Below, one piece after another: positions 5,651 through 59,153 of a stretch of 64,000 nt of DNA; positions within the stretch are counted from its first letter, which is position 1; every line of letters begins with the position of its first letter. Position numbers and translations under genes: made by a program. Below the pieces are notes generated by a model. It was not told the DNA's origin. It worked only from the letters and a program-made list of their open reading frames with translations, and made no database searches. This DNA is from Myxococcota bacterium (lineage in GTDB: Bacteria; UBA10199; JADFYH01): positions 5,195 through 69,194 of the forward strand of contig JBPOIC010000039.1 of the NCBI GenBank assembly GCA_052034865.1, given 5' to 3'.

Positions 5651-6919
5651 ATGACTCAACACGTGGATGATCTTGTAAAAAACCGCCACCTTCTTTCCCG
5701 TGAGGAAAGCTCCGATGTTTTTGCAAAGGCCTATGCCTTTCAAAAGGTGATCGGCTCGTTGCGTGAGACGGGAAGTTATCCTTATTTTCAACCTCTCTCC
5801 TTAAACCTCGGTCCCCAGGCCATTCTGAAAGGTAAAAAAGTCATCATGATGGGCTCTAATAATTATTTGGGGCTCACCACTCATCCCAAAGTTCGTGAAG
5901 CGGCCATTGAAGCCATTCAACGTTTTGGTACGAGCGCGACCGGTTCTCGTCTGCTCAACGGATCTTTGGAAATCCATGAGGCCTTCGAACACGAGATTGC
6001 CCAGTTTCTCAACAAAGAAGCGGCTCTGATTTTTACTACCGGCTATCAAGCCAATCTGGGCGCCATTACAGCCCTGGCAACCCACGGAGTTCAGGTTTAT
6101 CTCGATAAACAAAATCATGCGAGTTTGTATGATGCAGTCAAAATGAGTGAAGGACGTTGTGTGTTTTTCAAACACAACGATGCGGATCATTTAGATCGTC
6201 TGATGGCCCAGGCCCCTGCGGGAAGTCCGAAGCTGGTCGCGGTGGATGGGGTGTTCAGCATGGAAGGTGATCTCACTCCTCTTCCTAACATAGTCGAGGT
6301 TTGCAGGCGTCATCACGCGCGACTTTTGGTCGACGATGCCCATGCCCTGGGAGTTTTGGGAAAAAAAGGAGAAGGGACGGCAGGTCATTTTGGTTTGAGC
6401 TCAGAAGTCGATCTGATCATGGCGACCTTCTCAAAATCGCTGGCCTCAACTGGTGGTTATGTAGCCGGAGATTTTGCGATTGTGGATTATATCAAGCACC
6501 ATGGTCGCTCGATGATTTTTTCGGCTTCGATTACTCCTGCGAATCTAGCGGCGGCCCGCGAATCTCTTCAAATTCTCATTCAGGAGCCAGAACGCGTGAC
6601 GCAGGTGATGGAGAATGCTCGCGTTCTGAAAGAAGGATTGATCGCAATGGGATGGAGTGTTGGGGCTTCGCAAACACCGATCATCCCCGTACATATCGGA
6701 AATGATCTGACCGCCCTGACGCTTTGGAAAGATCTTCTGGAAGCCGGAGTCTATGTGAATCCGGTTGTCTATCCTGCGGTCGATCAGGACAAGGCGATTT
6801 TACGCGTGAGTACAATGACGACGCATACGCCCCAACATCTGGAACAGGCTCTTGAGGCGTTTCGTCTAGTTGGAGAGCGCTATCATCTTCTTGAAAAACA
6901 GGCGAGTCATGGGGCTTGA
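5651..6919 (+). CDS. spt: Alpha-oxoamine synthase family PLP enzyme, serine palmitoyltransferase-like
   Basis: 422 aa. GSNNYLGL, DDAHALGVLG and FSKSLASTGGYVAG (PLP-binding Lys) typical of Spt/BioF/Kbl family. Assignment to Spt rests on gene neighbourhood. Confidence 0.6.
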   Translation: MTQHVDDLVKNRHLLSREESSDVFAKAYAFQKVIGSLRETGSYPYFQPLSLNLGPQAILKGKKVIMMGSNNYLGLTTHPKVREAAIEAIQRFGTSATGSRLLNGSLEIHEAFEHEIAQFLNKEAALIFTTGYQANLGAITALATHGVQVYLDKQNHASLYDAVKMSEGRCVFFKHNDADHLDRLMAQAPAGSPKLVAVDGVFSMEGDLTPLPNIVEVCRRHHARLLVDDAHALGVLGKKGEGTAGHFGLSSEVDLIMATFSKSLASTGGYVAGDFAIVDYIKHHGRSMIFSASITPANLAAARESLQILIQEPERVTQVMENARVLKEGLIAMGWSVGASQTPIIPVHIGNDLTALTLWKDLLEAGVYVNPVVYPAVDQDKAILRVSTMTTHTPQHLEQALEAFRLVGERYHLLEKQASHGA

Positions 6920-11032: not shown

Positions 11033-11461
11033 ATGACTTCCAAAGACCTCGCTAAAAAAATCGCCACGATCGCCAGCGAAATGAAGGCCGATCAAATCAA
11101 AATTCTCGATCTTCAAAAACTCTCCAGCTTTACAGACTTTTTCGTGATCTGTTCGGGTACTTCCGATCGCCAGCTCCAGGCCATTGCCGACAAAGTTGTT
11201 TTGGAGCTTAAAAAAGAAGAGATTCGTCCTTACTCCACCGAGGGGTATGAACAGGGACAATGGGTACTTGTGGATTATCCAGGTGTTGTTCTTCATATTT
11301 TTACCGAAGAGGCCCGAGCACATTATGATCTGGAAGGATTTTGGGAAAAAGCTCCGCGACCGCGGGTGAGCCTTTCCCGTCCCAAAAAACTTAAAAATCT
11401 GAAACCTCTAAAAAAAACTACGAAAACTCCGGCTCGAAAACGAACAACGACGGCCAAATAA
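11033..11461 (+). CDS. rsfS: Ribosome silencing factor RsfS (Iojap family) with Lys-rich C-terminal tail
   Basis: LSSFTDFFVICSGTSDRQLQAIADKV...VLVDYPGVVLHIF is the RsfS signature. Extra C-terminal RPKKLKNLKPLKKTTKTPARKRTT basic tail. Confidence 0.85.
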   Translation: MTSKDLAKKIATIASEMKADQIKILDLQKLSSFTDFFVICSGTSDRQLQAIADKVVLELKKEEIRPYSTEGYEQGQWVLVDYPGVVLHIFTEEARAHYDLEGFWEKAPRPRVSLSRPKKLKNLKPLKKTTKTPARKRTTTAK

Positions 11462-13611: not shown

Positions 13612-13726
13612 TCTTTTACAGGGATGCTTTTTTGTTTTACTCCCAATATCGACTGAATATAATCGCCTTCGTCTTTAAGATATTCATTCCTTTCAACCCT
13701 ATCACTTTCCTATAAGGAGATCTCCT

Positions 13727-13930
13727 ATGGCAGCTAAGAAAAAGGCACCCAAAACCCGCGAAGTATTAGTGGTGGCAAGCAAGGTGAAGGACTTCATCAA
13801 ATCCAAAGGTTGCATGACCTCGGGAGATACAATTCCTGCTCTTTCTGAGAAAGTTTATGCCCTGATTGAGGAAGCCATTACTCGCACCAAAGAGAACAGG
13901 CGCTCAACCGTCAAGCCGCAGGATCTTTAA
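13727..13930 (+). CDS. Small basic histone-fold protein (DUF1931/HBb-like bacterial histone candidate)
   Basis: 67 aa, MAAKKKAPKTRE tail, then LVVASKVKDFIKSKG (alpha1), CMTSGD (L1), TIPALSEKVYALIEEAITRTKEN (alpha2), RRSTVKPQDL (histone L2/alpha3 motif, cf. GRKTIKAEDI). Strong RBS aaggaga at 13714-13720. Confidence 0.55.
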   Translation: MAAKKKAPKTREVLVVASKVKDFIKSKGCMTSGDTIPALSEKVYALIEEAITRTKENRRSTVKPQDL

Positions 13931-13938
13931 ATCGATCA

Positions 13939-14018
13939 CAACCCCCATCTCATCCGTCCACGTCATCTCTAATCAAAATCAGAGGTTGACGGGTTGGGTG
14001 GATGGGGGTTTTTCTTTT
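13939..14018 (+). terminator. Putative Rho-independent terminator after histone-fold gene
   Basis: Imperfect long hairpin acccccatctcatccgtccacg ... cgggttgggtggatgggggt followed by tttttctttt. Confidence 0.4.
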
Positions 14019-16354: not shown

Positions 16355-18064
16355 ATGAATACACTTCCTCGACATTCCAATCGTTATTTCAACGACTACC
16401 AGGCCACTCTTCAGGCAATTCATGTGGAGCGCTGGATGCAACAGGTGCTCGATCAGATTCATCTTGCTCAAAGTTTGTCCGATTGGGAGCAGGCGATCTA
16501 TCTCTGGAATGAGATCAAATGCCACATCGAGACGCATGCAGCCTCTGTCTCTTTGGCTTTTTATCGAAATACTCAGGATGAAAAGACTCAGGCAGAAGAG
16601 AAAAGATTCAATGAAGAAATTGAGCCCCCTTACAAAACCTTCAATGCCAAAATCCGCGAAAAAATTCTGAGTTCTCCTGTAAGAGCTGCCCTCGAAGAAA
16701 ATTTAGGTCAGCAATATTTTGTCTGGCTTCAGATTCAGCAGGATGCCTTTCATCCTCAAAATGTCGAGACTGAAACGGAAATTCACCTTCTTTTGTCTGA
16801 GTATACCAAGCTCACAGGAAATGCCGAGTTTGAGATCGCTGGCAAAACCTATCCCCTGGCTCATTATAAAAAATTCTCTTCTTCTCCCGATCCGGCCTTA
16901 CGCCGTGAAAGTCTTCAAAAATACAGTCAGTGGTTTTTAAATCACCGTGAAAAGCTCGAAGATATTTTTGAGCAATGTGTTCAGAAAAGATCGCAGATGG
17001 CTCAGGCAATAGGACATTCTTCCTACACTCCGCTGGGCTACCAAAAGATGGGCCGCGTCGATTATGGTCCTGACGAAGTGGCCGAGTTTCGAAAACAGAT
17101 TAAAGAAGCCGTGGTTCCCATTGCCACTCAAATTCGAGCTCAACAGGCAAAAAAAATAGGAACTTCAACTTTGGCGGTTTGGGACGGCGATTTCTTTCCT
17201 CAATGGAAGGTAGATCGCCTGAAAGTTGAGATTTCAGGTCAGGTCGGGGCTGGGCTTCGGGTCTATCAATCTTTATCCTCTGTTTTAGCCGGGCATTTTC
17301 AGAAAATGATCGATTATGATCTGATGGATGTTCCCGCCCGGCATGGAAAAGCACCCGGAGCTTTTTGTACGGAATTTTCGGATGCGCGCATGCCGTTTAT
17401 TTTTCTCAATAGTGTCAATGAAGTTTCAGACATTACCACCCTGCTGCATGAATGCGGTCATGCCTTCCAGGGTTGGGAAAGCCGCACGATTGATCTGCTG
17501 GAATTACGTGGTCCTACCTTAGAGGCTTGCGAGGTCCACTCGATGGGGATGGAGTTTCTGGCCCATCCTTATTACGAGGAGTTTTTGAGCCCTGAGAATG
17601 CGGCCAAATTCCGAAAATACCATCTGGCCGAAAGTTTGTTGCTGCTTCCCTACATTGCTGTGGTCGATGAATTTCAACACCGCATTTATACGGGAGAAGC
17701 AAAAGGACCAGAAGGAAGGGCGAGGGTTTGGGAGGAATTGGAAAAGCAGTATCTTCCAGCTCTCGATTATCAGGATCTTGCCATATGGCGAAAGTACCGC
17801 TGGTTACGCCAGCTGCATATCTTTCATAATCCTTTTTATTATATCGATTACGGTATCGCACTGGTGGGAGCTCTGCAGCTTTGGGTGCGCAGTATTCAGG
17901 ATAAGCAGGCGGCCCTGAGAGATTATCTCCATTTGTGCCAATTGGGAGGGACCTTGCCTCTAAGAGAATTTTTTAAGGCAGGAAATCTGAAACTGCCATT
18001 TGAGAAGGGAGTTTTGGATGAGCTTTTAAAAGCGGTGCTTCAATCCGAACCCATCCTCGATTAA
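16355..18064 (+). CDS. M3-family oligoendopeptidase (PepF-like)
   Basis: 569 aa. HExxH zinc motif LLHECGHAFQG with downstream E ligand region. Size and layout typical of M3B. Confidence 0.75.
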   Translation: MNTLPRHSNRYFNDYQATLQAIHVERWMQQVLDQIHLAQSLSDWEQAIYLWNEIKCHIETHAASVSLAFYRNTQDEKTQAEEKRFNEEIEPPYKTFNAKIREKILSSPVRAALEENLGQQYFVWLQIQQDAFHPQNVETETEIHLLLSEYTKLTGNAEFEIAGKTYPLAHYKKFSSSPDPALRRESLQKYSQWFLNHREKLEDIFEQCVQKRSQMAQAIGHSSYTPLGYQKMGRVDYGPDEVAEFRKQIKEAVVPIATQIRAQQAKKIGTSTLAVWDGDFFPQWKVDRLKVEISGQVGAGLRVYQSLSSVLAGHFQKMIDYDLMDVPARHGKAPGAFCTEFSDARMPFIFLNSVNEVSDITTLLHECGHAFQGWESRTIDLLELRGPTLEACEVHSMGMEFLAHPYYEEFLSPENAAKFRKYHLAESLLLLPYIAVVDEFQHRIYTGEAKGPEGRARVWEELEKQYLPALDYQDLAIWRKYRWLRQLHIFHNPFYYIDYGIALVGALQLWVRSIQDKQAALRDYLHLCQLGGTLPLREFFKAGNLKLPFEKGVLDELLKAVLQSEPILD

Positions 18065-18285
18065 TAATCAATCAGACTAAAGGATTCTACTCTTTCAATT
18101 TCTAAAATCGCAAAATCTTCTCCGTCGACAATTTTTAATGTTCCCCGATCTTCGTTAATTTCTTCCAGTATTCCTCGGTAAGAAATGTCAAAGGCGATGA
18201 TTTCGACCTTTTTTCCCTTGTAATCTATTAATCGAGTAATGGAGGCACCTTCATTGATCGGTTTCATGATCTGGATGGCATACAT
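18061..18285 (-). CDS. Hypothetical small protein (possible Sm-like fold)
   Basis: 74 aa, convergent with M3 peptidase (4-nt overlap). KKVEIIAFDISYRGILEEINEDRGTLKIVDGEDFAILEIERV loosely resembles an Sm barrel. No firm assignment. Confidence 0.25.
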   Translation of the reverse strand: MYAIQIMKPINEGASITRLIDYKGKKVEIIAFDISYRGILEEINEDRGTLKIVDGEDFAILEIERVESFSLIDY

Positions 18286-41290: not shown

Positions 41291-44200
41291 TCATTTTTTC
41301 TCTTCCATTTGCTGCACCAGTTGATCTGCAAGCTCTGAAATCGTTGGTCCTTTTAAAAGAAGGGCAATCGGAAGTTTGGTCTGAAGCCCTTGCTCGATTT
41401 CATTTTTGAGCTCAATGGCCATAAGAGAATCGAGTCCCAAATGATTGAGCGATTGCCCCGGCTTTAAACTTTCGGATGTCGATCCCAAAACACGCGCGAG
41501 TTTTTCAGAAATCACCGAAAGAAGCCATTCCCGGCGCTTTTCAGGCGGTTTCTTCAAATAAATTTCATATAAATCCTGTGGAGCTAAACTCGAAGGCACT
41601 CGATTTTGGGTCGTCTCAGGAGATTCCAGTTTTTTTAGCCAAAGCCTTCGTGATTCGGGCAAATTCTCCTGAAGTTTTTTTTGATCCCACGAAACAACAA
41701 TCGGATTGCGTGTCGAGAATCCCGGTGGATCCAACAAAAGTTTCTCCAAAACTCCAAATCCCTGATCCAATGAAAGAGGGTGAATGCCCCAGGCTTGCAT
41801 CCGTTCCACCGTTTTTTCATGGGTTGCCATTCCGACTTTGGCCCACGGTCCCCACACAATGCTTTGTGAGACAAGACCTTCCCGATTTCGCGCATGCGCC
41901 AGTCCATTCAAAAACGCATTGGCAGCGCTGTAGTTTGACTGTGCGTAAGATCCCATCGTGCCTGAAAGTGATGAAAAAAGAATAAAGTAATCCAGTGGGA
42001 TGGAGCGCGTGGCCTCATGCAGGTAAAAGGCTCCCATCGCCTTGGAAGTAAACACGCTTTGAAAATTTTCTTTAGTTTGATGCAGCAAAACTCCATCTTT
42101 CAGAACTCCTGCGAGATGAAAAATTCCTCGCAAGGGCGGAAGATTTTTTTGAAGGACATCGAGTAACGAATCTACCTCCGATCTTTTTGAAAGATCGGCC
42201 GAATGGACAAGCACGTGCGCACCTTCATTTTTCCAGCGGACCATTTCCTGAAGCTGATGTTCGGTGGGAGATTTTCGACTCACCAGAAAGAGATGACGGG
42301 CGCCTTTTGAAATCATCCATCGGGCAAGCTCAAAGCCCAAACCTCCCAGACCTCCGGTGATCAGATAACTGGCATCCCTTGAAAATGAGAACTCATGGGG
42401 TTTTGCCGCGAATGTTTTCGGGCGTTCGTTGAAAGTGAGAACAATTTTTCCCGTATTTTTACGCTGGGCCATGAAGCGAAAAGCATAAGGCGCGTCGCTG
42501 ATGGGAAAGGTTGTATGAGGGATTGGTTTTAAATGTTGATGTTCAAATTGAGAGATGAGTTCCGTGAAGAGTCGATGGGTAAGATCCTGGCGCTCGCGGA
42601 AAATGCGGTCCAAATCGATTGCAAAATAGGAAAGACTTTTCTGAAACGGTAAAAGCCCCAAGGCATGATTTTGATAGATATCGCTTTTTCCGATTTCCAG
42701 AAATCGTCCAAAAGGAGCAAGGGTTTGCAGGCTTTTGGAAATAAACTCCCCGGGAAGCGAGTTGAGCACAAGATCGACTCCGCGATCTTGAGTGAGAGTG
42801 AGAATCTCTTCGGCAAACTTTGTCGTGCGTGAATCAAAAACATGTTCCACACCCAGCGATTTTAAATACGCGCGTTTTTCATCGCTGCCTGCAGTGGCGA
42901 AGATTTCCAATCCTGTTTGTTGAGCGAGTTGAACGGCGGCCAATCCAACGCCACCGGCACCCGCATGAATGAGAATTTTTTCTTTTTTTCGCATGCGTCC
43001 CAGATCATGCAGGGCATGGGTGGCGGTCAGAAATGCCACTGGAACACTGGCCGCTTCTTCAAAGTTTAAATGTGCAGGTTTTAGCACAACGAGTGGAGCC
43101 GCGGTCGTGACGAAGTTTCCAAAGCTGTAGGGTGCAATTGCGATGACTTCATCGCCGACTTTAAAACCTTTCACGCGTTCGCCCAGACGCACAATTTTTC
43201 CCGAACACTCAGCGCCCAAAGGAACGGTCGTCTCACGCGCGCCGGGGTAAAGGCCTAGCGCTTTCAGGACGTCGCTGAAATTAAGACCCGCCGCTCTGAC
43301 GACAATTTCCACTTCATGATCCCCTGGCGCACGACGCACAACCGGTCGAAATCCCATCCCGTCCAGACTTCCGGACTGAACTATTTCCAGGCGATAGGCA
43401 TCGAAATCCTGAATGGATTTGTTTTGCTGTGGAGTCTTCGCAGGTGTTTCCGATGCAATTTTCAGACGGCACACCCATCGTCTGTTTTCGCGAATTAGAA
43501 ATTCATCTTCGTGCGTCGGCCGCATCAGCGTTTGAGTGAGGAGGGTGATTTCTGAAGAGGTCGGATGAGAAGGCAGATCAATGAGACAGAGAGAGAGTTC
43601 GGGGTGCTCCAGCTGTACGCTTCGAAGCATTCCCCAAAGGGCGGTCGCACTGACACCAGGATTTTCTGGGTCGAACGGATGCGCCTGGGCGCCCTGAGTG
43701 ACCACAGTCAGCTTTGGGTAAGAGGGGAGATCGGCTTGCAGGAGCGTTTTCAAAAAGGCGAGAAAATCGCCACAGATTTTTTCAGCCTCCGATATCCCTT
43801 CGAAAGATAAAGGATCGCAGAGAGAATCCATTTCGATCAAAAGATGCTGGCATTCAGACTGTCCCACATGAAACAGGTTTTTTGCATCAGACTCAGACGA
43901 CTCATTTTGGATCTCATCCTGAAAACTTTTCCAACTCTTCGTTAAGACACTCTGTCCCTTTTCTCGAAGTTCTTTTGCAAGAGGACTCGCTTCGTTGGCT
44001 GTCAGCACCAGCCAGGATTCAATTACCTTTACCTCCATCGGAAGAGGTGTTTCATCGATTTCCCATTCCTGCTCAAAAATCAGATTCTCGTTTGACGATT
44101 GGCTTGCCTTTGAAATCTTTCCCAGCCCCGTCAGATGAAGACCCGAAATTATTCCCAAAGTCTTTCCTTCGACATCAAAAAGAAAAATATCTGCCACGAT

Positions 44201-47200
44201 CTTCTCATCCAAAAAAGTGTCCGACTTTATTTTTGCATAGCTCCAGACCGTACTTCCCAAGTCTTTCTTTAAAAAAATCTCATCGATGCGGACTGGAAGA
44301 TAGAGATTTTCAATCGATGAAGATTCTGGAAGAGCGGCTGCCACCACTTGCAGGCAGGCATCCAGAAGGGCGGGATGAAAAGGAGCACTTTGCTCGGGGC
44401 TCTCTGCTTTTAAATTTTTCGGACTTTCAATAAATCCTAGCGCTTCTCTGTTATTTTTAAATAACTTTTGAATTCCCTGAAAAGACGGTCCGTACTCCAA
44501 TCCTGCCCACTTTAGCTTTTGATAAAAATCCTGCACGCCAACAGACTCACACACCCTTTCGCGAATGAAATGGAGGGATAGAGTTTCATCTTTCGATTCC
44601 GGTTTATTCCTTTCATAAGCGATTTCGGCACACGCCTGAAGGGTTTGGTCTGAATCCTCTTGAGAATAAATTTCAAATTCTGATTTGTAAGAAAGAGAGG
44701 AAGTGGAGCGGAGGATGAGAGTCTTTTGTTTTCCTTCATCCAAAAAGAGCGGTTTTTGAAATGAGATCTTTTTCAAAACGATAGAATCCTGCGCGTTTTG
44801 TTTTTTTCCTGCTTCGTAGAGATACGCGAGAGAAGCGGTTGCTGGAAAAAGGATTTCTTTTTGTACACGGTGATCGAGCAGGTAGGGAAAGGTTTTAAGG
44901 TCGATCCGGTGTTCAAATACCGATTCTGATTTTTTTCGTTGGATCGGCAAAAGTGCACTGGATGGTGCTTTGCCCCATTCTCCAAACCAGTAGGATTCCC
45001 TTGCAAAAGGATAAGTGGGGGCCAGCGGCAAGGGTGGAATCGTTTGTCCAAACACAGCTTTCCAATTGACCCACAGGCCGTGCTGATAAAGCGCCGATAA
45101 GGATTTCAGCATTTGATCGCGATCTTCTCCCTCATTTTTAAGACTTGAAAGCCAAAGCCTGGTGGTTCCTGTTTTCGCGAGCCCTCGTTTGGCCAGCAAG
45201 GTGAGGATGGGTTGCGGTCCGATTTCAATCAAGGCGTCGGCGCCTTCACGGATGAGCGTTTCAATGCCGGTAAAATAGCGGACAGGCTCACGCAAATGTT
45301 TGCGCCAATAAGTTGCGGTGGGTGCTGTTTCGAGAAGGTTTCCGGTCCGATTTGAAATCAGTGGAATCTGAGGTTTATAAAAAGAGATCTCTTTCGCTTT
45401 TTCTTCGAACGCATCAAGGATGGGATCCATCAAGGGAGAGTGAAAGGCATGTGATACATTCAAAGTCTGGGTGGCAATCTCAAGCGTAGTGAATTCATCT
45501 TGAAGTGCTTCAATCGCTTCCCGTTTTCCAGATAAAACAAGGGCTCTGGGTCCGTTGAATGCGGCAATCGAAACCTCGTGGGCGTAAGGTTTCAGCGAGG
45601 ATTCAATTTGCTCTTCAGTTGCAATAACGGCGAGCATGGTCCCATTTTTAGGAAGGCCATGCATGAGTTTTGCACGATGCGCGATGAGCGTAAGACCCTC
45701 TTCCCATTCCATCACCTTTGCGACACACGCGGCAACATACTCGCCCACGCTATGACCCAGGACAAAATCAGGTTCAATTCCCCAGGATTTCCATAGCTCG
45801 TACAAGGCATACTCGAGCGCAAAAAGTGCCGGCTGGGTATAGAGGGTTTCGTGGATGAGAGCGGGATTCATTTTAGAATCAAAAAGAATCGAAAGTAATG
45901 AAGTCTCAAGCACGGGTTTCAAAATTCCGTCGCAACGATCCAGCACTTTTCTAAAACAGGGCTCGGATTCATACAGCGAGCAGCCCATTCCCACATATTG
46001 CGATCCCTGGCCGGTAAATAAAAAAGCAATTCTGGGTTTCTTCTTTTGAGAGACAGAAAAATGAATTGAAGATTCTTTCGAGAAACCCTCTTTGTTTTCT
46101 AAAAACGATAAAACAAAATCGGACAGATTTTTTTTAAGCTCGTCCAGGGAGCATGGCAGAAAAAGCGAACGATGCTCAAAATCCGCTCGTCCTGCACATG
46201 CGGTGAAACAGACCTCCTTCAGGGAAAGATAAGAATTATTTTGAAGATAGGAAATCCAGCGTTCTGCGAGTGTTTTTAATCCCTCCACACTTTTAGCCGA
46301 GAGCTTGAAAGGATAAAGGTCTGCATCCTTAAGTTCGGTTGGAAGGGAATCTTTTTGCCTGGCTTCATTTTCTTTATTTATCCAGATTTCTTCAGGACCT
46401 CCAACAACCACATGGGCATTGGTCCCGCCAAATCCAAAAGAGCTGATCCCTGCAAACCTTTGCCTGTTCTGAAAATTCCATGACATCATTTGAGTGGGAA
46501 TCGAAAGTTTCAAGGCAGTCAGATCAATGTGCGGATTGATTTTTTTAAAGTGGAGGTGCGAAGGAATTTGACGATGTTTCAAAGAAAGTAAAACCTTGAT
46601 GAGCCCGGCAATTCCGGCGGCAGCTTCCAGATGTCCAAAGTTGGTTTTGACCGATCCGACTTTGCAAGGTGAGTCTGAAGGGCGATTTTTTTGAAGCACT
46701 TTTCCCAAGGCGGCCATTTCGATCGGATCACCCAGTGGAGTGCCCGTGCCATGGGCCTCCACGTAATCGATTTTTTCGGATGAAATTTTAGCTCTTTGCA
46801 AGGCCTGTAGAATCACATCCTGCTGGGCCTGCCCGTTCGGTGCGGTGAGTCCGTTGCTGCGCCCATCCTGATTGACAGCCGATCCACGAATGATTCCCAA
46901 AATTTCATCTTTATCTCGCACGGCCTCTGCAAGACGCTTGAGAATCACCACTCCACAGCCTTCGCCACGCACATAACCATCCGCTTTCTCATCAAAAGTT
47001 TTGCAGCGCCCTTCAGGGGACATCATCCGTGCCTGTGAAAAGGCGATGTTAAGCTCCGGTCTTAAGATCAGATTGACGCCTCCCGCGAGGGCCAGGTTGG
47101 ATTCCATTCTTCTCAAACTCTCACAGGCCATATGCACGGCGACAAGGGATGAGGAACAGGCCGTGTCGACGGCAAGACTGGGTCCCTGAAAATCAAAAAA

Positions 47201-49942
47201 GTAAGAAAGCCTATTGGCAGCGATGCTGTGGGCATTGCCAACTCCCGCATAGGCATCGATTTTTGAAGGATCTTCCCATTGCAGGTGGGCATAGTCGCTG
47301 CTGCTAATTCCCACAAAAACACCCGTCTTGCTTTTTTGAAGGGTGGAAGGATTAAGAGCCGCGGATTCAAAGGCCTCCCAACTCACTTCCAAAAGCAGGC
47401 GCTGTTGAGGATCCATGCGTGTGGCCTCACGCGGTGAGATTTTAAAAAAGCTGGCATCAAAAAAATCAGGACGGGTAATAAATCCGCCCCAGCGGGTGTT
47501 CATCTTTCCGGCCTCGCCAGGTCTTGGATCGTAATAATCCTCTTCTTTCCAGCGATCGGCAGGAACGGGAGTGATCGCATCTTTTCCAGATTCCAGTAAT
47601 TTCCAGAAGGCCTCCAGATTTTCGGCACCCGGAAAACGACAGGCCATGCCTATCACGGCGATGGGTTCATCCAAATCCCTCTGTTGATTCTCCTTCTTAT
47701 CAATCCGAGGGGTTTCCTCAGAATTCAAAGAGGCATGAGAGCCCATTATAGCCAAATCCGAAAATTCAGGATTTCCCAAATATTCAGCGAGGGCTTTCAT
47801 ATTCGGATATTCCCAAAGCAGGGTAGGGGAGAGTTTGCGTCCGAGCCAGATTTCGAGATCGCCTGAAAGGCCAACGAGTTCTTTTGAATCGAGGCCGTAA
47901 TGCGCAAAACTTTCCTGAGGATCAAGATCATTTGCGCTGACTCCTGCACGAGAAGAAACGGCATTGATAAGCCAGTTCAGGATTTGCTGAGGAAGAGGTT
48001 TTGAAAAATAAGTTTGTCCAGAATTTGCGGTATGGTCAGAATCCGTTTTTTTTACTTCCAGGATAGCATCCTGATTTTTGAATGGGAAAATTTTTGAAGG
48101 GAGATCTTTTTTCCATTGGGCCACAATCTCCATTTTTTTATTTAAGAAATCCTCGCGACAAAAACGGCGGGAAACTTTTCCGCTGGAGGTTTTGGGAAGA
48201 GTTCCCGGACGAATCAGGACAATCGCATGAATGTCGACCTCATGGATTTTTGCAACCTGCTCGCGAATGGCGGAAAAAATACGTTCATAGGATAGTGCTG
48301 AAGAAAGCTCCAGTTTTGAAAGCTCTTGAACAAGGATCAAAAACTCCTCTCCATCTTCATCCACCGAAAACGCAGCACCCGCTCCGGGTCTTAGGGCAGG
48401 ATGGGCCTTCTCAAGGGTTTCCTCCAGATCATGAGGGTAGTGGTTTTGACCATTGAGGATGATGAGATCTTTCAGGCGATCGGTAATAAAAAGTTCACCC
48501 TGGTCGAGAAATCCCAAATCGCCGGTTCGAAGATAGGTGCGATCATTTTTATAATTTGAGGACGGATTGATCACAGCACGAAAGACTTCGCGGGTGAGCT
48601 GCTTTTTTCCCCAATATCCTTGCGCGATACTGGGTCCACTTACCCAGATTTCACCGATCTCTCCGGGTTCACAAGGCAGGCAGGTTTCGGGATGAACGAT
48701 TAATACTTCCTGATCCTGAAATGAATTTCCACACCCGACGAGAATTTTTTCTCCTGAAGGGAGATCACTCAAATCAGAAGAATGAGAAACATCCGTCCTC
48801 TGTACCTCTATAGATCGCCCTTTCTCTGATTCTTTTCTTTCCTTGTTGGCAGGGCTGACACGTCCTTCTTTCAAGAGATCTCGCAGCACTCGTTTGAAAA
48901 CAGGTGGTTGCGTAGCATTTCCACCCGAGACCATCAGGGTTGCTTCTGCCAGTCCATAACAGGGATAGAAGGCCTCAGGTTTAAATCCACAAGGAGCAAA
49001 AACTTTTTGAAATTGTCGCAAGGTTTCCGCGCGCACAGGCTCAGCTCCACAAAAGGCCAGATTCCATGAAGAAAGATTTAGCTGACCAATCTGCTCTGGT
49101 GTAATTTTTCTTAAACATAATTCATAAGCGAAATTGGGCCCACCACTCGTGGTCGCCCTGAAATCACTGATGGCCTTGAGCCATAAAAATGGCTTTTGCA
49201 AAAAGGTGAGGGGCGACATCAAAACACTAAAGCCCCCGCCAAAAAGCGGCTCTAAAATCCCTCCGATCAGTCCCATGTCATGATAGGGTGGCAGCCATGA
49301 AACCCCGCGACTTTTTGGATGAAGATCAAATGCGCGATAAATCAGTCCTAAATTGTGCAAAAGATTTGCGTGTGAAAGCATGACCCCTTTGGGCTGACCC
49401 GTGGAGCCGGAAGTGTATTGAAGAAAAGCGAGATGAGCGGATGAAATTGGCGGGCATTGCCATTCCTTCTTTTCATCTTTTAAATGATCCGTTGTTTCCC
49501 AATTCAGATTTTTTAATGAAGGAGTTCCGGAAAAAATAAGCCGAGCCGTTTGATGAATCGATTCGGTCGTGAGAACCCATTTTGCCCCACTATCCTGAAG
49601 AATCGATTGCAGGCGCGGTAAAGTGCGTGAAAGTCGGTAAGGATCGGGAGGATAGGCCGGTACTGCAATCACACCGGCATAAAGACATCCAAAAAAAGCG
49701 GCGATGTAATCAAGCCCGGGAGGATAGAGCAGCAAGGCCCTTTCTCCCGGAGATACTTTTATTTTCAAATCGCTCGCAATCTGTCTGGCCCGATGGTCGA
49801 GCTCGCGATAGGTGAGGCTTGGGGAGGGCAGATCGTCGGATTCCAGAAAGGTGTAAAGCGTATGATCCGGCATTTCATCGGCATGATATTTCAAGAGATC
49901 AACGAGCGAAGAAATAGATGGAGACACGGAAGGACGAGTCAT
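41291..49942 (-). CDS. FAAL-ACP-KS-AT-DH-(pseudoKR)-ER-KR-ACP megasynthase (fatty acyl-AMP ligase fused to a fully reducing type I PKS module; no TE/R/ST release domain)
   Basis: 2883 aa. FAAL/AMP-binding TSGSTGQPKG (aa 177-186). ACP1 GLDS Ser686 (nt 47885-47887). KS DTACSSS Cys929 (47156-47158) plus EAHGTGT, NFGHLEAAAG. AT GQGSQ and GHSVGE Ser1398 (45749-45751) and HAFH 1498-1501 (malonyl-type). DH LDHRVQKEILFP His1691. ER GAGGVGLAAVQLA. KR TGGLGGLG. ACP2 LGLDS Ser2839 (41426-41428). Protein ends 44 aa after ACP2. Confidence 0.9.
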   Translation of the reverse strand: MTRPSVSPSISSLVDLLKYHADEMPDHTLYTFLESDDLPSPSLTYRELDHRARQIASDLKIKVSPGERALLLYPPGLDYIAAFFGCLYAGVIAVPAYPPDPYRLSRTLPRLQSILQDSGAKWVLTTESIHQTARLIFSGTPSLKNLNWETTDHLKDEKKEWQCPPISSAHLAFLQYTSGSTGQPKGVMLSHANLLHNLGLIYRAFDLHPKSRGVSWLPPYHDMGLIGGILEPLFGGGFSVLMSPLTFLQKPFLWLKAISDFRATTSGGPNFAYELCLRKITPEQIGQLNLSSWNLAFCGAEPVRAETLRQFQKVFAPCGFKPEAFYPCYGLAEATLMVSGGNATQPPVFKRVLRDLLKEGRVSPANKERKESEKGRSIEVQRTDVSHSSDLSDLPSGEKILVGCGNSFQDQEVLIVHPETCLPCEPGEIGEIWVSGPSIAQGYWGKKQLTREVFRAVINPSSNYKNDRTYLRTGDLGFLDQGELFITDRLKDLIILNGQNHYPHDLEETLEKAHPALRPGAGAAFSVDEDGEEFLILVQELSKLELSSALSYERIFSAIREQVAKIHEVDIHAIVLIRPGTLPKTSSGKVSRRFCREDFLNKKMEIVAQWKKDLPSKIFPFKNQDAILEVKKTDSDHTANSGQTYFSKPLPQQILNWLINAVSSRAGVSANDLDPQESFAHYGLDSKELVGLSGDLEIWLGRKLSPTLLWEYPNMKALAEYLGNPEFSDLAIMGSHASLNSEETPRIDKKENQQRDLDEPIAVIGMACRFPGAENLEAFWKLLESGKDAITPVPADRWKEEDYYDPRPGEAGKMNTRWGGFITRPDFFDASFFKISPREATRMDPQQRLLLEVSWEAFESAALNPSTLQKSKTGVFVGISSSDYAHLQWEDPSKIDAYAGVGNAHSIAANRLSYFFDFQGPSLAVDTACSSSLVAVHMACESLRRMESNLALAGGVNLILRPELNIAFSQARMMSPEGRCKTFDEKADGYVRGEGCGVVILKRLAEAVRDKDEILGIIRGSAVNQDGRSNGLTAPNGQAQQDVILQALQRAKISSEKIDYVEAHGTGTPLGDPIEMAALGKVLQKNRPSDSPCKVGSVKTNFGHLEAAAGIAGLIKVLLSLKHRQIPSHLHFKKINPHIDLTALKLSIPTQMMSWNFQNRQRFAGISSFGFGGTNAHVVVGGPEEIWINKENEARQKDSLPTELKDADLYPFKLSAKSVEGLKTLAERWISYLQNNSYLSLKEVCFTACAGRADFEHRSLFLPCSLDELKKNLSDFVLSFLENKEGFSKESSIHFSVSQKKKPRIAFLFTGQGSQYVGMGCSLYESEPCFRKVLDRCDGILKPVLETSLLSILFDSKMNPALIHETLYTQPALFALEYALYELWKSWGIEPDFVLGHSVGEYVAACVAKVMEWEEGLTLIAHRAKLMHGLPKNGTMLAVIATEEQIESSLKPYAHEVSIAAFNGPRALVLSGKREAIEALQDEFTTLEIATQTLNVSHAFHSPLMDPILDAFEEKAKEISFYKPQIPLISNRTGNLLETAPTATYWRKHLREPVRYFTGIETLIREGADALIEIGPQPILTLLAKRGLAKTGTTRLWLSSLKNEGEDRDQMLKSLSALYQHGLWVNWKAVFGQTIPPLPLAPTYPFARESYWFGEWGKAPSSALLPIQRKKSESVFEHRIDLKTFPYLLDHRVQKEILFPATASLAYLYEAGKKQNAQDSIVLKKISFQKPLFLDEGKQKTLILRSTSSLSYKSEFEIYSQEDSDQTLQACAEIAYERNKPESKDETLSLHFIRERVCESVGVQDFYQKLKWAGLEYGPSFQGIQKLFKNNREALGFIESPKNLKAESPEQSAPFHPALLDACLQVVAAALPESSSIENLYLPVRIDEIFLKKDLGSTVWSYAKIKSDTFLDEKIVADIFLFDVEGKTLGIISGLHLTGLGKISKASQSSNENLIFEQEWEIDETPLPMEVKVIESWLVLTANEASPLAKELREKGQSVLTKSWKSFQDEIQNESSESDAKNLFHVGQSECQHLLIEMDSLCDPLSFEGISEAEKICGDFLAFLKTLLQADLPSYPKLTVVTQGAQAHPFDPENPGVSATALWGMLRSVQLEHPELSLCLIDLPSHPTSSEITLLTQTLMRPTHEDEFLIRENRRWVCRLKIASETPAKTPQQNKSIQDFDAYRLEIVQSGSLDGMGFRPVVRRAPGDHEVEIVVRAAGLNFSDVLKALGLYPGARETTVPLGAECSGKIVRLGERVKGFKVGDEVIAIAPYSFGNFVTTAAPLVVLKPAHLNFEEAASVPVAFLTATHALHDLGRMRKKEKILIHAGAGGVGLAAVQLAQQTGLEIFATAGSDEKRAYLKSLGVEHVFDSRTTKFAEEILTLTQDRGVDLVLNSLPGEFISKSLQTLAPFGRFLEIGKSDIYQNHALGLLPFQKSLSYFAIDLDRIFRERQDLTHRLFTELISQFEHQHLKPIPHTTFPISDAPYAFRFMAQRKNTGKIVLTFNERPKTFAAKPHEFSFSRDASYLITGGLGGLGFELARWMISKGARHLFLVSRKSPTEHQLQEMVRWKNEGAHVLVHSADLSKRSEVDSLLDVLQKNLPPLRGIFHLAGVLKDGVLLHQTKENFQSVFTSKAMGAFYLHEATRSIPLDYFILFSSLSGTMGSYAQSNYSAANAFLNGLAHARNREGLVSQSIVWGPWAKVGMATHEKTVERMQAWGIHPLSLDQGFGVLEKLLLDPPGFSTRNPIVVSWDQKKLQENLPESRRLWLKKLESPETTQNRVPSSLAPQDLYEIYLKKPPEKRREWLLSVISEKLARVLGSTSESLKPGQSLNHLGLDSLMAIELKNEIEQGLQTKLPIALLLKGPTISELADQLVQQMEEKK

Positions 49943-57126: not shown

Positions 57127-57873
57127 ATTTTGGTTCATGACTAGCAAATTGGTTTTGCTTTGAGGAGTTTCAGGATCAATGGGTAGAGGTTTTCATGCTT
57201 GTGATTGAAACTGAACTCACATTCTTTTAAGTGTAAATAGAAAGTCGATTTTCTCATCCCGCGAAACTTCGCAAGCCTCACCTTCGCCAGTCCCCAAAAG
57301 TTCTAAATTCCATTAATGTGGGTCTTATCTGTGGCAAAGACGTTCGCCCCATGGTTGACCCGGTAATGCCTTCGGTATCCTAAATCCACCAGTCCATCAT
57401 AGGCCCGCCATTTGTTCGAATGAATCGTGTTCTTAAAATCGACCTTTCCCCGGATGACCGCATGCAACGTAGATCTGGAGCAATCGGGCACGATCTCTGT
57501 ATAGACCTTGCCGTTGCGCTTATAGACACCAAACACAATCGTTTTTCCTAAAGCTCCACGCCATCTTTTCCCTCGAACGCGTCTGGCTCCAAAGAACGAC
57601 TCGTCTACTTCCACTTCTCCTTGAAAAGGCGATTCTCTCTCGCAACTTTGAGCAATGAGTTGACGGATGAGGGTTAGATAACGATTGAATCGTATTCCGA
57701 TTAAGTCCTGACAATTGAGCAATCTGAGTTGCCTGCAAATCCACCGAAAAATATCGGACAATTTCCCGGATTTTAGCCCTCGAAATCTTTGAACCATGAA
57801 AACACCCGCGAACCCTTATCATCTCTAGCTTTTTAGACATTATTCATGCCATTTGCTAGTCATGAACCAAAAT
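57127..57873. mobile_element. IS1595-family-derived miniature element with near-perfect 25-bp terminal inverted repeats and decayed transposase
   Basis: IRL attttggttcatgactagcaaattgg (57127-57152). IRR ccatttgctagtcatgaaccaaaat (57849-57873) has one indel versus the reverse complement. Begins immediately after the sugar-transferase stop codon. Confidence 0.6.
57303..57840 (-). pseudogene. IS1595-family (ISXO2-like) DDE transposase, frameshifted and C-terminally truncated
   Basis: N-terminal frame (57520-57840) has HTH region FSVDLQATQIAQLSGLNRNTI. C-terminal frame (57303-57797) has ESPFQGEVEVDESFFGARRVRGKRWRGALGKTIVFGV...PDCSRSTL...HSNKWRAYDGLVDLGYRRHYRVNHG...THINGI, then stop. The usual ESFWS... 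tail is absent. Confidence 0.6.
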
Positions 57874-57886
57874 TATTTTGTCACTC

Positions 57887-59153
57887 ACAACTAAAGATGT
57901 CCTGTGATTGATTTTATTCATGCGGCCTTTTTTTTGGCTTTCAGGCTGTAAGGTTTGCCGTTTTGTTCGTACTGTCCCAACAGCTTGTCCTGATAACTCA
58001 CTCCCAACGTTCCATTGGGAAACTGGTGGACGATGACCGGACAGCGAACAAAGTGAACTCTCTCAGGCCTTTCAGGAATCTGCAGAATCACATTCTGGTA
58101 AGTCACGGTGTTGTCTTGGCGCACAATCCTCTCCTCCTGAACCGAAAGCAGAAGCTTTAAGTCAATGCCTGCCAAAGGAGTAAAGGCCGTCTCTGTCTAA
58201 GCCGGGGGCACCGTAAAGAGTTTATTGAACTTCGCTAGAAACGTTTTGTTCAGATACTCATTGGCCTGATCATAGCTTTGAATCCCCTCCAAACGAAGCT
58301 CTTGAGGCAGTCTACCTTGGAACGTCCCAAACGCCCGCTCACTCCTCCCCCGTGCCTGAGGAGAACGAGCGGAGATCTGACGGATTCCTAAGGCCTTTAA
58401 CACCCGACTGACTTGGCCGTTCTGCACCTCATCCGGTCCTTGCACCGCCTGGCTAGTCCGTCCGAAGTGAGATCTTCGATCATGATAGAGCTCACAGAAA
58501 CGACCATAACGGGTCAAGACATGCTCCAAAGCAGCCAGGGTCGACAGCGTCCCTTCCTGAGGTACGAATCGGGCATACAACGCCTTGCCATCCGCATCGT
58601 CTAACACCAAGATTAAATCCCAGGGCGGAATGCTTGCAATCCATTCATGAGTTGATCCATCGATGTGGATCAACATCCCCCGCATCCCACGCCTCTCCCG
58701 TTTACGCCGATGCTTTCCCCGAGACGGCCCTTTCTGGACAATCCCCGCCTCCTCCAACACGATGCGGGTCCAGTTGTAGGAAAGAGACAGCTGATGCTTT
58801 TGGGTCGCATATTCGTGAAAATGCTTCACGGAAAAATCAGGATAAATCTCTCGCTTCAAGCGACACACTTCCTCAATCGTCTGGAGAGCAATCCGCTTGC
58901 GGCGGGGCGTGCCTGATCGCTTATCTCTTAAACCCCCATACCCATGCTCTTCCCACCGCTTTTTCAACCGACGCATCTGGCGGGCGCTGATCCCTAAAAT
59001 ATCCGCTGCCTGGATCCAGCTGATCTTCTTCTCGATGGCCTTCAAGATCACTTCTTTCCGGGTCATTTGTCTCGCCTCCCGGGTGACGGCTTTGTTATGG
59101 GTATTCATCCCATAATGATCGCCTCACCCTGCAAAGCGGACATCTTTAATTGT
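57887..59153. mobile_element. IS481-like (rve/integrase-core) insertion sequence with split transposase
   Basis: Imperfect terminal inverted repeats acaactaaagatgtcc (57887-57902) and ggacatctttaattgt (59138-59153). Transposase on minus strand in two frames: 58197-59108 (HTH plus DDE core) and 57918-58175 (C-terminal domain). Confidence 0.5.
58197..59108 (-). CDS. rve-type DDE transposase, IS481-family-like (main fragment; C-terminal part continues in another frame at 57918-58175)
   Basis: N-terminal HTH ISWIQAADILGISARQMRRLKKRWEEHGYGGLRDKRSGTPRR. Integrase core LIHIDGSTHEW...LVLDDADG...FCELYHDRRSHF. Confidence 0.6.
   Translation of the reverse strand: MNTHNKAVTREARQMTRKEVILKAIEKKISWIQAADILGISARQMRRLKKRWEEHGYGGLRDKRSGTPRRKRIALQTIEEVCRLKREIYPDFSVKHFHEYATQKHQLSLSYNWTRIVLEEAGIVQKGPSRGKHRRKRERRGMRGMLIHIDGSTHEWIASIPPWDLILVLDDADGKALYARFVPQEGTLSTLAALEHVLTRYGRFCELYHDRRSHFGRTSQAVQGPDEVQNGQVSRVLKALGIRQISARSPQARGRSERAFGTFQGRLPQELRLEGIQSYDQANEYLNKTFLAKFNKLFTVPPA

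What the first reader, a model, noticed from the sequence alone, without database searches (positions are those of the whole stretch)
13700..14018. Stand-alone 67-aa histone-fold protein with lysine-rich tail, strong RBS and terminator (bacterial histone candidate)
Seen: MAAKKKAPKTRE-VLVVASKVKDFIKSKG-CMTSGD-TIPALSEKVYALIEEAITRTKEN-RRSTVKPQDL. The spacing matches a histone fold: alpha1, loop L1 with S/D, a roughly 23-residue alpha2, then the R-(K/S)-T-(V/I)-K-x-x-D-(L/I) L2/alpha3 motif found in archaeal HMf histones (GRKTIKAEDI). An aaggaga RBS sits 7 nt upstream and a hairpin plus T-tract downstream, suggesting a highly expressed monocistronic gene.

Established: DUF1931-type histone-fold singlets (e.g. 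Bdellovibrio HBb) are abundant nucleoid proteins in a few bacterial lineages.

Inference: this is a bacterial histone-like chromatin protein. With the sphingolipid genes it hints at a Bdellovibrio-like or similarly unusual lineage, but the taxon is not established.
Basis: partly seen in the sequence, partly recalled or inferred. Interest (0 to 1): 0.65.

Follow-up and report, generated by a model that had tools for sequence, protein, structure and literature searches.

The report
Face-to-face bacterial histone gene (HLp-like)
This small gene encodes a genuine bacterial histone of the already described "face-to-face" type, whose solved relative from Leptospira forms tetramers that wrap DNA, so it is a real but ordinary new member of a known family.

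Summary
There is a 67-aa ORF at 13727-13930 (+) with an AAGGAG ribosome-binding site, a promoter-like site upstream, and a strong hairpin plus T-tract downstream. The ORF is conserved and under purifying selection.

It is a histone-fold protein. The AlphaFold2 model (pLDDT 82) superposes on the crystal structure of HLp from Leptospira perolatii (PDB 9QT0) at 0.7 A rmsd. Sequence match to HLp is E = 3e-18, against 3e-6 for Bdellovibrio HBb. HLp's DNA-contact residues, RD clamp and the R/N/R residues of its dimer-dimer interface are retained, and they are invariant across the family alignment.

The protein is therefore a face-to-face (FtF) alpha3-truncated histone. It is not a DUF1931 pseudodimer and not an HBb-type dimer histone. 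The most likely mechanism is a homotetramer that wraps about 60 bp of DNA non-specifically, helped by a Lys-rich N-terminal tail.

The family is large: 2,185 cluster representatives and at least 522 species genomes, mostly Planctomycetota. The literature already describes it, including the basic tails.

The source lineage is unresolved. Its closest relatives are MAGs labelled Deltaproteobacteria or Pseudomonadota, and nothing points to Bdellovibrio.

Verdict: a new member of a known kind, of modest interest.

The parts
13636..13663 (+). Sigma-70-like promoter candidate, TTTACT-16 nt-TATAAT, about 64 nt upstream of the start codon
   Evidence: It matches 10 of 12 consensus positions. The region holds 1 such site against 1.9 expected from shuffles, so this is only a consensus match. 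Orthologous loci L002 and L003 carry TTTACA-type hexamers at a similar distance (read by eye).
13714..13720 (+). Shine-Dalgarno sequence AAGGAGA. It is embedded in a perfect 12-nt palindrome, AGGAGATCTCCT, at 13715-13726.
   Evidence: Read directly from the sequence. Orthologs L002-L004 also have AGGAG, GAGGAG or AAGGAGA 5-8 nt upstream of the start. Only 1 of 45 other window ORFs has a 6-nt Shine-Dalgarno match. The 5' leader has no significant fold, z = +0.6.
13727..13930 (+). Coding sequence of a 67-aa face-to-face (FtF) alpha3-truncated histone: 7.4 kDa, pI 9.9, 15 K+R against 8 D+E
13727..13762 (+). Lys-rich disordered N-terminal tail, residues 1-12 (MAAKKKAPKTRE)
   Evidence: Residues 1-7 have pLDDT below 50. 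Homolog tails run 4-47 aa, median 15, with 44% K/R and 22% Ala. Basic tails on bacterial FtF histones are already described in PMC11390915.
13775..13804 (+). Helix alpha1, residues 17-26. It carries A17, S18, K19, K21 and K25, the equivalents of HLp DNA-contact residues A13, S14, K15, K17 and K21.
   Evidence: DSSP on the model, alignment to 9QT0, HLp contacts from PMC12701072. K19, V20 and K21 are invariant in the family alignment.
13829..13894 (+). Helix alpha2, residues 35-56. Its C-terminal end carries R53, with N57 just after the helix. These equal HLp R49 and N53, the dimer-dimer interface residues.
   Evidence: R53 and N57 invariant. 121 of 122 homologs carry RxxxNxRxTxxxxD.
13901..13927 (+). 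Loop L2 and truncated alpha3, R59-S-T61-V-K-P-Q-D66-L67. This is the RxTxxxxD motif, with the R59-D66 'RD clamp' and the S60/T61 'beta-bridge' DNA contacts.
   Evidence: helix 64-66 only; definition of alpha3-truncated histones.
13940..14018 (+). Intrinsic-terminator-like element: an imperfect hairpin of about 30 bp at 13940-14010, followed by TTTTTCTTTT
   Evidence: dG -41.1 kcal/mol, z = -6.5. The T-tract follows only on the + strand. The element is unique in the window and not a repeat family. L004 has a different hairpin plus T-tract at the same place, while L002 and L003 run straight into a downstream ORF.

Best explanation
The gene encodes a bacterial face-to-face (FtF) alpha3-truncated histone, an ortholog-level relative of HLp from Leptospira.

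Shown here: it is a conserved, selected coding gene. It adopts a histone fold with a 22-residue alpha2 and a one-turn alpha3. It retains the residues that in the HLp crystal structures contact the DNA backbone (A17, S18, K19, K21, K25, T31, G33, S60, T61), form the RD clamp (R59-D66), pack the handshake dimer (V20, I24, L39, V43, L46, I51, L67) and make the dimer-dimer hydrogen-bond network (R53, N57, R59).

Inferred by homology: two monomers form a handshake dimer. Two dimers then associate face to face through the alpha2 C-terminus, L2 and alpha3 into a closed tetramer with a continuous basic band. About 60 bp of DNA wraps around this tetramer without sequence specificity, compacting the nucleoid. 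The Lys-rich disordered N-terminal tail adds electrostatic DNA affinity.

Also inferred: the strong Shine-Dalgarno site, a possible promoter of its own and a strong terminator give high expression as a short transcript, as expected of an abundant nucleoid-associated protein.
For: - Sequence. phmmer against PDB gives HLp 9QT0 at E = 2.8e-18 over residues 10-66, with about 60% identity. HBb (8CMP, 8FVX) scores about 3e-6 and archaeal FtF HTkC (9F2C) 1.6e-3.
- Family profile. HLp scores 5.8e-28, HBb 7e-14 and HTkC 3e-10.
- Structure. The AF2 model has pLDDT 81.9 with helices 17-26, 35-56 and 64-66. The top Foldseek hit is 9QT0_A at rmsd 0.7 A, TM 0.96 and 59% identity, followed by HBb, HTkC and eukaryotic core histones.
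- Conservation. The invariant family columns are K19, V20, K21, A50, R53, N57, R59, T61 and D66. 121 of 122 homologs carry RxxxNxRxTxxxxD.
- Literature. HLp forms stable tetramers by SEC-MALS and crystallography, wraps about 60 bp, and reorganises the E. coli nucleoid. R49, N53 and R55 are conserved in predicted tetrameric bacterial FtF histones (PMC12701072). HBb-type dimers lack R48 and N52 (PMC11390915), and in the alignment HBb has S and D at those positions. The L. interrogans FtF histone ranks second to fourth in protein abundance, is nucleoid-enriched and is probably essential (PMC10627809).
- Selection. Synonymous changes exceed non-synonymous ones.
- Native gene. GC is 0.475 against 0.457 for the window, GC3 is within 1 sd of the window's genes, the neighbours are housekeeping genes and there is a single copy.
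- Expression signals.
Against: - The tetramer itself could not be predicted or measured here, because the structure tool handles single chains only.
- Three secondary interface positions differ from HLp: S52->E56, T61->Q65 and F63->L67.
- There are no expression, abundance or DNA-binding data for this organism.
- No curated Pfam or NCBIfam model reaches threshold. CBFD_NFYB_HMF scores 13.5 bits against a cut-off of 21.4, and NCBIfam gives nothing.
- Whether the genome also encodes HU, IHF or Dps is unknown from a 64-kb window.
- The promoter is only a consensus match, and read-through from iPGM is not excluded.
Confidence: 0.8

Rival explanations
1. It is a histone that works as an HBb-like dimer. 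It binds and bends DNA (or coats straight DNA) without forming a stable tetramer and without wrapping.
For: HBb is the second-best solved relative, at E about 3e-6, rmsd 0.9-1.0 A and 45% identity. Three peripheral HLp interface positions are substituted: E56, Q65 and L67. No multimer prediction could be run.
Against: The protein is 12 orders of magnitude closer to HLp than to HBb. It keeps R53 and N57, the two residues whose absence defines the 'bacterial dimer' group (PMC11390915), and these are invariant in the family.
Confidence: 0.12
2. It is a histone-fold protein with a role outside global chromatin, for example a specific regulator or a protein-protein adaptor. This has been suggested for DUF1931 pseudodimers and for NF-Y/TAF-like histone folds.
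For: There are weak sub-threshold Pfam hits to CENP-X and CBFD_NFYB_HMF. 16 of 43 family members give weak DUF1931 hits, best E = 0.0026. PMC11390915 cautions that not every prokaryotic histone-fold protein need be a genome organiser. Gene neighbourhoods are metabolic: citrate synthase here and apparent glycogen genes in Planctomycetota.
Against: All HLp DNA-backbone contact residues are retained (8 identical, 1 conservative) and the protein is strongly basic, with pI 9.9 and a Lys-rich tail. The window protein gives no DUF1931 hit, and the family profile does not find 1R4V or 1WWI. The protein is a singlet. No partner gene is conserved across clades.
Confidence: 0.06
3. It is a chance ORF or a recently acquired mobile or phage gene, not a resident functional gene.
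For: The ORF is very short, at 67 codons. The family has no above-threshold curated profile. 'Phage histones' exist as an alpha3 category.
Against: There are 143 homologs, and an identical copy on an independently assembled contig. The gene is under purifying selection and is syntenic with citrate synthase in L002-L004. Its composition is native. Only 2 related loci were found among 2.9 million viral contigs. No repeat or mobile-element signature flanks it.
Confidence: 0.01

Closest known systems
HLp, the face-to-face (FtF) histone of Leptospira perolatii (PDB 9QT0/9QT1/9QT2; PMC12701072), and its L. interrogans ortholog LA_2458
   Same: It is a single histone fold of 63-67 aa, with about 60% identity over the fold. 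The model superposes at 0.7 A rmsd. It has the same short alpha2 and one-turn alpha3, the same DNA-contact residues, RD clamp, R/N/R interface residues and hydrophobic dimer core, and a short basic disordered N-terminus.
   Different: The tail is four residues longer and richer in Lys. Interface positions change from S52/T61/F63 to E56/Q65/L67, and loop L1 has Cys29 where HLp has Phe. The gene neighbourhood differs: iPGM and citrate synthase here, SMC, MAP and DUF350 in Leptospira. The host lineage is different and uncultured. There are no experimental data.
HBb / Bd0055, the 'bacterial dimer' histone of Bdellovibrio bacteriovorus (PDB 8CMP, 8FVX, 9EZZ)
   Same: It is an alpha3-truncated histone fold of similar size, with 45% identity, rmsd about 1 A, an RxTxxxxD-type L2 motif and alpha1 lysines.
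   Different: HBb has Ser and Asp where this protein has R53 and N57, is a dimer in solution and bends DNA rather than wrapping it. The sequence match is far weaker, 3e-6 against 3e-18.
HTkC (Thermococcus kodakarensis, PDB 9F2C) and other archaeal FtF histones
   Same: They belong to the same FtF category, with a torus-like tetramer through alpha2-C, L2 and alpha3. The model matches at rmsd 1.1 A and 34-36% identity.
   Different: They are archaeal and generally lack tails. The sequence relationship is more distant, at profile E = 3e-10.
DUF1931 (PF09123) pseudodimeric histones, Aquifex aeolicus Aq_328 (1R4V) and Thermus thermophilus (1WWI)
   Same: They share the histone-fold superfamily. Some family members give weak PF09123 hits.
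   Different: Those proteins have two fused folds in one chain and lack the DNA-binding residues, and they form a separate sequence cluster. This protein gives no PF09123 hit, and its family profile does not detect 1R4V or 1WWI.
Archaeal nucleosomal histones (HMfB/HTkA; Pfam CBFD_NFYB_HMF)
   Same: They share the fold, the handshake dimer, the RxTxxxxD/RD clamp and about 60 bp of DNA per tetramer.
   Different: Nucleosomal histones have a 10-residue alpha3 and a longer alpha2. They tetramerise on DNA through a single four-helix-bundle interface and extend into hypernucleosomes. The Pfam score here is 13.5 bits, below the 21.4-bit cut-off.

Membership tests
alpha3-truncated (alpha3) histones (Schwab et al. 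2024, PMC11390915) | Histone fold: alpha1-L1-alpha2-L2-alpha3 | tested here: met
   The AF2 model has pLDDT 81.9 with helices 17-26, 35-56 and 64-66. Essentially all listed Foldseek PDB hits are histones.
alpha3-truncated (alpha3) histones (Schwab et al. 2024, PMC11390915) | alpha3 of only 3-4 residues, and an alpha2 4-5 residues shorter than in nucleosomal histones | tested here: met
   alpha3 covers residues 64-66 and the protein ends at 67. alpha2 is 22 residues.
Face-to-face (FtF) histones | RxTxxxxD motif with the intramolecular R-D clamp | tested here: met
   R59-S-T61-V-K-P-Q-D66. R59, T61 and D66 are invariant in the family alignment.
Face-to-face (FtF) histones | Conserved Arg and Asn at the end of alpha2 (HMM R48/N52, HLp R49/N53) that make the dimer-dimer contacts | tested here: met
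   R53 and N57 are present and invariant. 121 of 122 homologs carry RxxxNxRxTxxxxD.
Face-to-face (FtF) histones | Conserved solvent-exposed lysines on alpha1 (HMM K16 and neighbours) | tested here: met
   K19, K21 and K25 correspond to HLp K15, K17 and K21. K19 and K21 are invariant, and K25 is at least 90% conserved.
Face-to-face (FtF) histones | Confidently predicted or observed torus-like homotetramer (the formal criterion of the category) | not testable with these tools
   Structure prediction handles one chain only. Tetramer formation is inferred from 60% identity to tetrameric HLp and from the retained interface residues.
Face-to-face (FtF) histones | Sequence clusters with bacterial FtF histones rather than with other prokaryotic histone groups | tested here: met
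   For the single sequence, HLp scores 2.8e-18 against 2.9e-6 for HBb. For the profile, the scores are 5.8e-28 and 7e-14.
Face-to-face (FtF) histones | Non-specific DNA binding and wrapping of about 60 bp | not testable with these tools
   This was shown experimentally only for HLp. Here 8 of 9 contact residues are identical and 1 is conservative.
Bacterial dimer histones (HBb/Bd0055 type) | Lack of the FtF interface residues R48 and N52 | tested here: not met
   The window protein has R53 and N57, where HBb has S and D at the aligned positions.
DUF1931 (PF09123) pseudodimeric histones | Match to Pfam PF09123 | tested here: not met
   The window protein gives no PF09123 hit at E <= 10. 16 of 43 relatives give only weak hits, best E = 0.0026.
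DUF1931 (PF09123) pseudodimeric histones | Two histone folds fused in one chain, and absence of the canonical DNA-binding residues | tested here: not met
   The protein is a single 67-aa fold with its DNA-contact residues retained. The family profile does not detect 1R4V or 1WWI at E <= 10.
Archaeal nucleosomal histones / CBFD_NFYB_HMF (PF00808) | Pfam score at or above the gathering threshold, and a full-length alpha3 of about 10 residues | tested here: not met
   The score is 13.5 bits against a cut-off of 21.4, and alpha3 is one turn.
Rho-independent (intrinsic) terminator | Stable G+C-containing hairpin immediately followed by a U-tract on the transcribed strand | tested here: met
   Hairpin 13940-14010 has dG -41.1 and z = -6.5, and is followed by TTTTTCTTTT. 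There is no T-tract on the opposite strand. The stem, about 30 bp, is atypically long, and the simple scanner did not report it.

The most novel reading that the evidence does not exclude
The source organism may belong to a deep, uncultured lineage, currently labelled only 'Deltaproteobacteria', 'Pseudomonadota' or 'bacterium', that lies outside the four phyla listed for bacterial FtF histones. In that lineage this histone could be the principal chromatin protein, standing in for HU as proposed for Leptospira. Its Lys-rich N-terminal tail could then act as a regulated (for example acetylated) handle on chromatin state, analogous to eukaryotic and Asgard histone tails.
Probability: 0.08. Interest if true: 0.55.

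Novelty: new member of a known kind. Interest (0 to 1): 0.3.

Why it matters
Bacterial histones were recognised only recently, and few have been studied. This gene adds a clear FtF-type histone from an uncultured clade labelled Deltaproteobacteria, in which the R/N/R interface residues, the DNA-contact residues and a basic tail are all intact. That is consistent with HLp-like tetrameric DNA wrapping being widespread in bacteria and not peculiar to Leptospira, although no oligomeric state or DNA binding was tested here.

It also has a practical use for annotation. No curated Pfam or NCBIfam model captures this family at threshold, and its members are deposited as 'hypothetical protein', so they are systematically missed.

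It does not open a new question. The family, its distribution, its tails and its mechanism are already published.

Tried and rejected
- Pfam and NCBIfam scans of the protein gave only sub-threshold CENP-X and CBFD_NFYB_HMF hits and no NCBIfam hit. Profile libraries therefore cannot classify it, and the PDB sequence search and fold comparison were decisive instead.
- The consensus terminator scan found only a weak site inside the ORF and missed the real hairpin. Direct folding recovered it.
- I tested whether the long hairpin belongs to a repeat family or is a structured RNA. It is unique in the window, and Rfam gave no match at gathering threshold anywhere in the 64 kb.
- I tested whether the palindromic RBS region or the 5' leader forms a regulatory structure. 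It is no better than shuffled sequence, z = +0.6.
- I looked for a terminator between iPGM and the histone gene and found none, z = +1.4.
- A second histone copy in the window was sought by a six-frame HMM search and not found.
- The composition profile shows no sign of horizontal acquisition.
- Only 2 related loci turned up in viral contigs, so a phage origin is rejected.
- I searched 80 loci for a universally conserved partner gene. There is clade-specific synteny only: citrate synthase in this clade and an apparent glycogen-gene trio in Planctomycetota.
- Taxon probing with the adjacent citrate synthase was uninformative. The best named hits are 'bacterium' or 'Deltaproteobacteria bacterium' at 84%, followed by Acidobacteriota at about 76%.

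Full report
**1. Observation**

The window contains an ORF at 13727-13930 on the + strand.

AAGGAG lies at 13714-13719, 7 nt before the ATG. A 10-of-12 match to the sigma-70 consensus, TTTACT-16-TATAAT, lies at 13636-13663.

Ten bases after the stop codon, an imperfect hairpin of about 30 bp spans 13940-14010. Its dG is -41.1 kcal/mol, z = -6.5, and none of 200 shuffles folds as well. It is followed by TTTTTCTTTT. The hairpin folds on either strand, but only the + strand has the T-tract after it. It is unique in the window.

The upstream iPGM gene has no terminator-like structure, so 'monocistronic' is plausible but not demonstrated.

The ORF is clearly real:
- An identical protein is encoded on an independently assembled contig with the same neighbours.
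- 143 homologs were retrieved.
- Against the three closest orthologs, synonymous codon differences outnumber non-synonymous ones: 26 vs 13, 21 vs 17 and 27 vs 16.
- All four orthologs carry a strong Shine-Dalgarno site.

**2. What it is**

Curated profile libraries are nearly silent. Pfam gives only sub-threshold CENP-X (E = 0.043) and CBFD_NFYB_HMF (13.5 bits against a 21.4-bit cut-off). There is no PF09123/DUF1931 hit at E <= 10 and no NCBIfam hit.

The search against solved structures is decisive:

| Solved structure | Single sequence | Family profile |
|---|---|---|
| 9QT0 (HLp) | 2.8e-18, residues 10-66 | 5.8e-28 |
| 8CMP / 8FVX (Bdellovibrio HBb/Bd0055) | about 3e-6 | 7e-14 |
| 9F2C (archaeal HTkC) | 1.6e-3 | 3e-10 |
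| 1R4V / 1WWI (DUF1931 pseudodimers) | no match at E <= 10 | no match at E <= 10 |

9QT0 is HLp from Leptospira perolatii. It is a face-to-face (FtF) alpha3-truncated histone that forms stable tetramers, wraps about 60 bp of DNA and reorganises the E. coli nucleoid (PMC12701072).

An AlphaFold2 model built on a 43-sequence alignment has mean pLDDT 81.9, with helices at 17-26, 35-56 and 64-66 and a disordered N-terminus. Foldseek against the PDB puts 9QT0_A first (rmsd 0.7 A, TM 0.96, 59% identity). It is followed by HBb, HTkC and then eukaryotic core histones.

**3. Residue-level comparison**

Window numbering equals HLp paper numbering plus 4. This follows from the alignment and from the 63-residue native HLp against the 65-residue deposited chain.

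| HLp feature | HLp residues | Window residues |
|---|---|---|
| DNA-backbone contacts | A13, S14, K15, K17, K21, T27, G29, T56, T57 | A17, S18, K19, K21, K25, T31, G33, S60, T61 |
| RD clamp | R55-D62 | R59-D66 |
| Hydrophobic dimer core | V16, I20, L35, L39, L42, L47, F63 | V20, I24, L39, V43, L46, I51, L67 |
| Conserved dimer-dimer interface | R49, N53, R55 | R53, N57, R59 |

Eight of the nine DNA contacts are identical and one is conservative. Three peripheral interface residues differ: S52->E56, T61->Q65 and F63->L67.

In the family alignment the invariant columns are K19, V20, K21, A50, R53, N57, R59, T61 and D66. 121 of 122 homologs contain RxxxNxRxTxxxxD.

Schwab et al. define alpha3 histones by a 3-4-residue alpha3 and a shortened alpha2. 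They define FtF histones by the tetramer mediated by R48/N52, and 'bacterial dimer' histones such as HBb by the lack of those two residues (PMC11390915). In the alignment HBb has S and D at these positions.

The window protein therefore meets every sequence and fold criterion for FtF membership. It fails the criteria for the bacterial-dimer, DUF1931 and nucleosomal groups. The tetramer itself could not be modelled with the available single-chain tool.

**4. Mechanism**

Shown: the fold, the conservation and the retention of functional residues.

Inferred by homology:
- a handshake homodimer
- face-to-face association of two dimers through the alpha2 C-terminus, L2 and alpha3 into a closed tetramer with a continuous basic band
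- sequence-independent wrapping of about 60 bp and compaction of the nucleoid

The protein is strongly basic (pI 9.9). Its N-terminal dodecapeptide MAAKKKAPKTRE is predicted to be disordered. Homolog tails run 4-47 residues (median 15) with 44% K/R and 22% Ala. This feature is already reported for bacterial FtF histones.

High expression is inferred from the Shine-Dalgarno site and the terminator. It is also suggested by analogy with the L. interrogans ortholog, which ranks second to fourth in protein abundance, is nucleoid-enriched and is probably essential.

**5. Context and distribution**

The gene lies among housekeeping genes: RsfS, RlmH, iPGM, then the histone, then citrate synthase, transaldolase and an M3 peptidase. 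Its composition is native, and there is no second copy in the window.

Histone-citrate synthase adjacency is kept in the three closest genomes, L002-L004. Those genomes have an extra small ORF with a signal peptide between the two genes.

The family profile finds 2,185 50%-identity cluster representatives at E <= 1e-3 and 494 at E <= 1e-10. At least 522 species-representative genomes encode a relative. These are overwhelmingly Planctomycetota (Phycisphaerae, Sedimentisphaerales, Pirellulales, Kuenenia), plus MAGs labelled Deltaproteobacteria, Pseudomonadota, Myxococcales or Babeliaceae. Only two related loci occur among 2.9 million viral contigs.

The source lineage is unresolved. The closest histone and citrate-synthase homologs come from MAGs named only 'Deltaproteobacteria bacterium', 'uncultured Pseudomonadota bacterium' or 'bacterium'. 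Nothing supports a Bdellovibrio-like origin.

**6. Comparison and novelty**

The closest known protein is HLp, followed by HBb and HTkC. The literature already reports bacterial FtF histones in Spirochaetota, Planctomycetota, Bdellovibrionota and Myxococcota. It also reports their basic tails and the tetrameric wrapping mechanism. This is therefore a new member of a known kind.

Its 'DUF1931-type/HBb' label should be replaced by 'FtF alpha3 histone, HLp-like'. The hinted lineage is unsupported.

**7. Verdict**

This is a real, conserved, probably highly expressed FtF bacterial histone gene. I put confidence in the family assignment at about 0.9, and in the full mechanism (a tetramer wrapping about 60 bp, acting as a nucleoid protein) at about 0.8. 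Interest is modest (0.3), because the family and its mechanism are already published. The main practical value is for annotation, since members are deposited as hypothetical proteins and escape Pfam and NCBIfam thresholds.

Noticed in passing
window 13715-13726: The ribosome-binding site is embedded in a perfect 12-nt palindrome, AGGAGATCTCCT, that abuts the ATG. The leader shows no significant folding (z = +0.6), and the palindrome is absent from orthologs L002-L004. It is probably coincidental.
   Followed up: partly
P0123-P0129, P0138, P0172 (not in the window): Many of the best hits of the family profile are proteins of 118-150 aa with two matched stretches. These are tandem FtF-like histone doublets in which both halves keep SKVK and NGRxTVRxxD. 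Two of them (P0123, P0138) begin with signal-peptide-like hydrophobic N-termini, which is odd for a histone. P0172 has a Cys-rich N-terminal region.
   Followed up: no
loci L005-L081: In 36-45 of the 80 genome loci, mostly Planctomycetota, the histone gene lies directly upstream, on the same strand, of three conserved genes. These look like a glycogen-synthase-type glycosyltransferase, a GH57 enzyme and a glycogen-debranching enzyme. They were identified by eye only and not Pfam-tested. Divergent ORFs of about 115 aa lie upstream in 27-29 loci. The window's clade does not share this arrangement.
   Followed up: partly
L002 6201-6641; L003 and L004 equivalents: In the three closest relatives, a small ORF with a signal peptide (for example MKKLSFLVSFFLLTISAIPLFAQ...) sits between the histone gene and citrate synthase. 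In L002 and L003 it starts only a few nucleotides after the histone stop codon. It is absent from the window, where the terminator hairpin occupies the gap.
   Followed up: partly
window 11033-11461 (+): The RsfS ribosome-silencing factor carries a C-terminal extension of about 38 residues rich in K, R and T (...RPKKLKNLKPLKKTTKTPARKRTTTAK), beyond the Pfam RsfS domain, which covers residues 9-104 of 142.
   Followed up: no
window 41291-49942 (-), 5651-6919 (+): A 2,883-aa fatty-acyl-AMP-ligase/PKS megasynthase has the domain order AMP-binding, KS, AT, DH, ER, KR, ACP. A class I/II aminotransferase that could be serine-palmitoyltransferase-like lies next to PAP2, LPG-synthase-TM and GT4 genes. 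The 'sphingolipid' reading was tested only at Pfam family level.
   Followed up: partly
window 57303-59108 (-): An IS1595/ISXO2-type transposase appears to be split into several ORFs: HTH domains at 58197-59108, a small ORF at 57918-58175 and a DDE domain at 57303-57797. This suggests a degraded or frameshifted insertion sequence.
   Followed up: no
window 18061-18285 (-): A 74-aa ORF with no Pfam family converges on the 3' end of the M3 peptidase gene and overlaps it by 4 nt. Whether it is a real gene was not tested.
   Followed up: no
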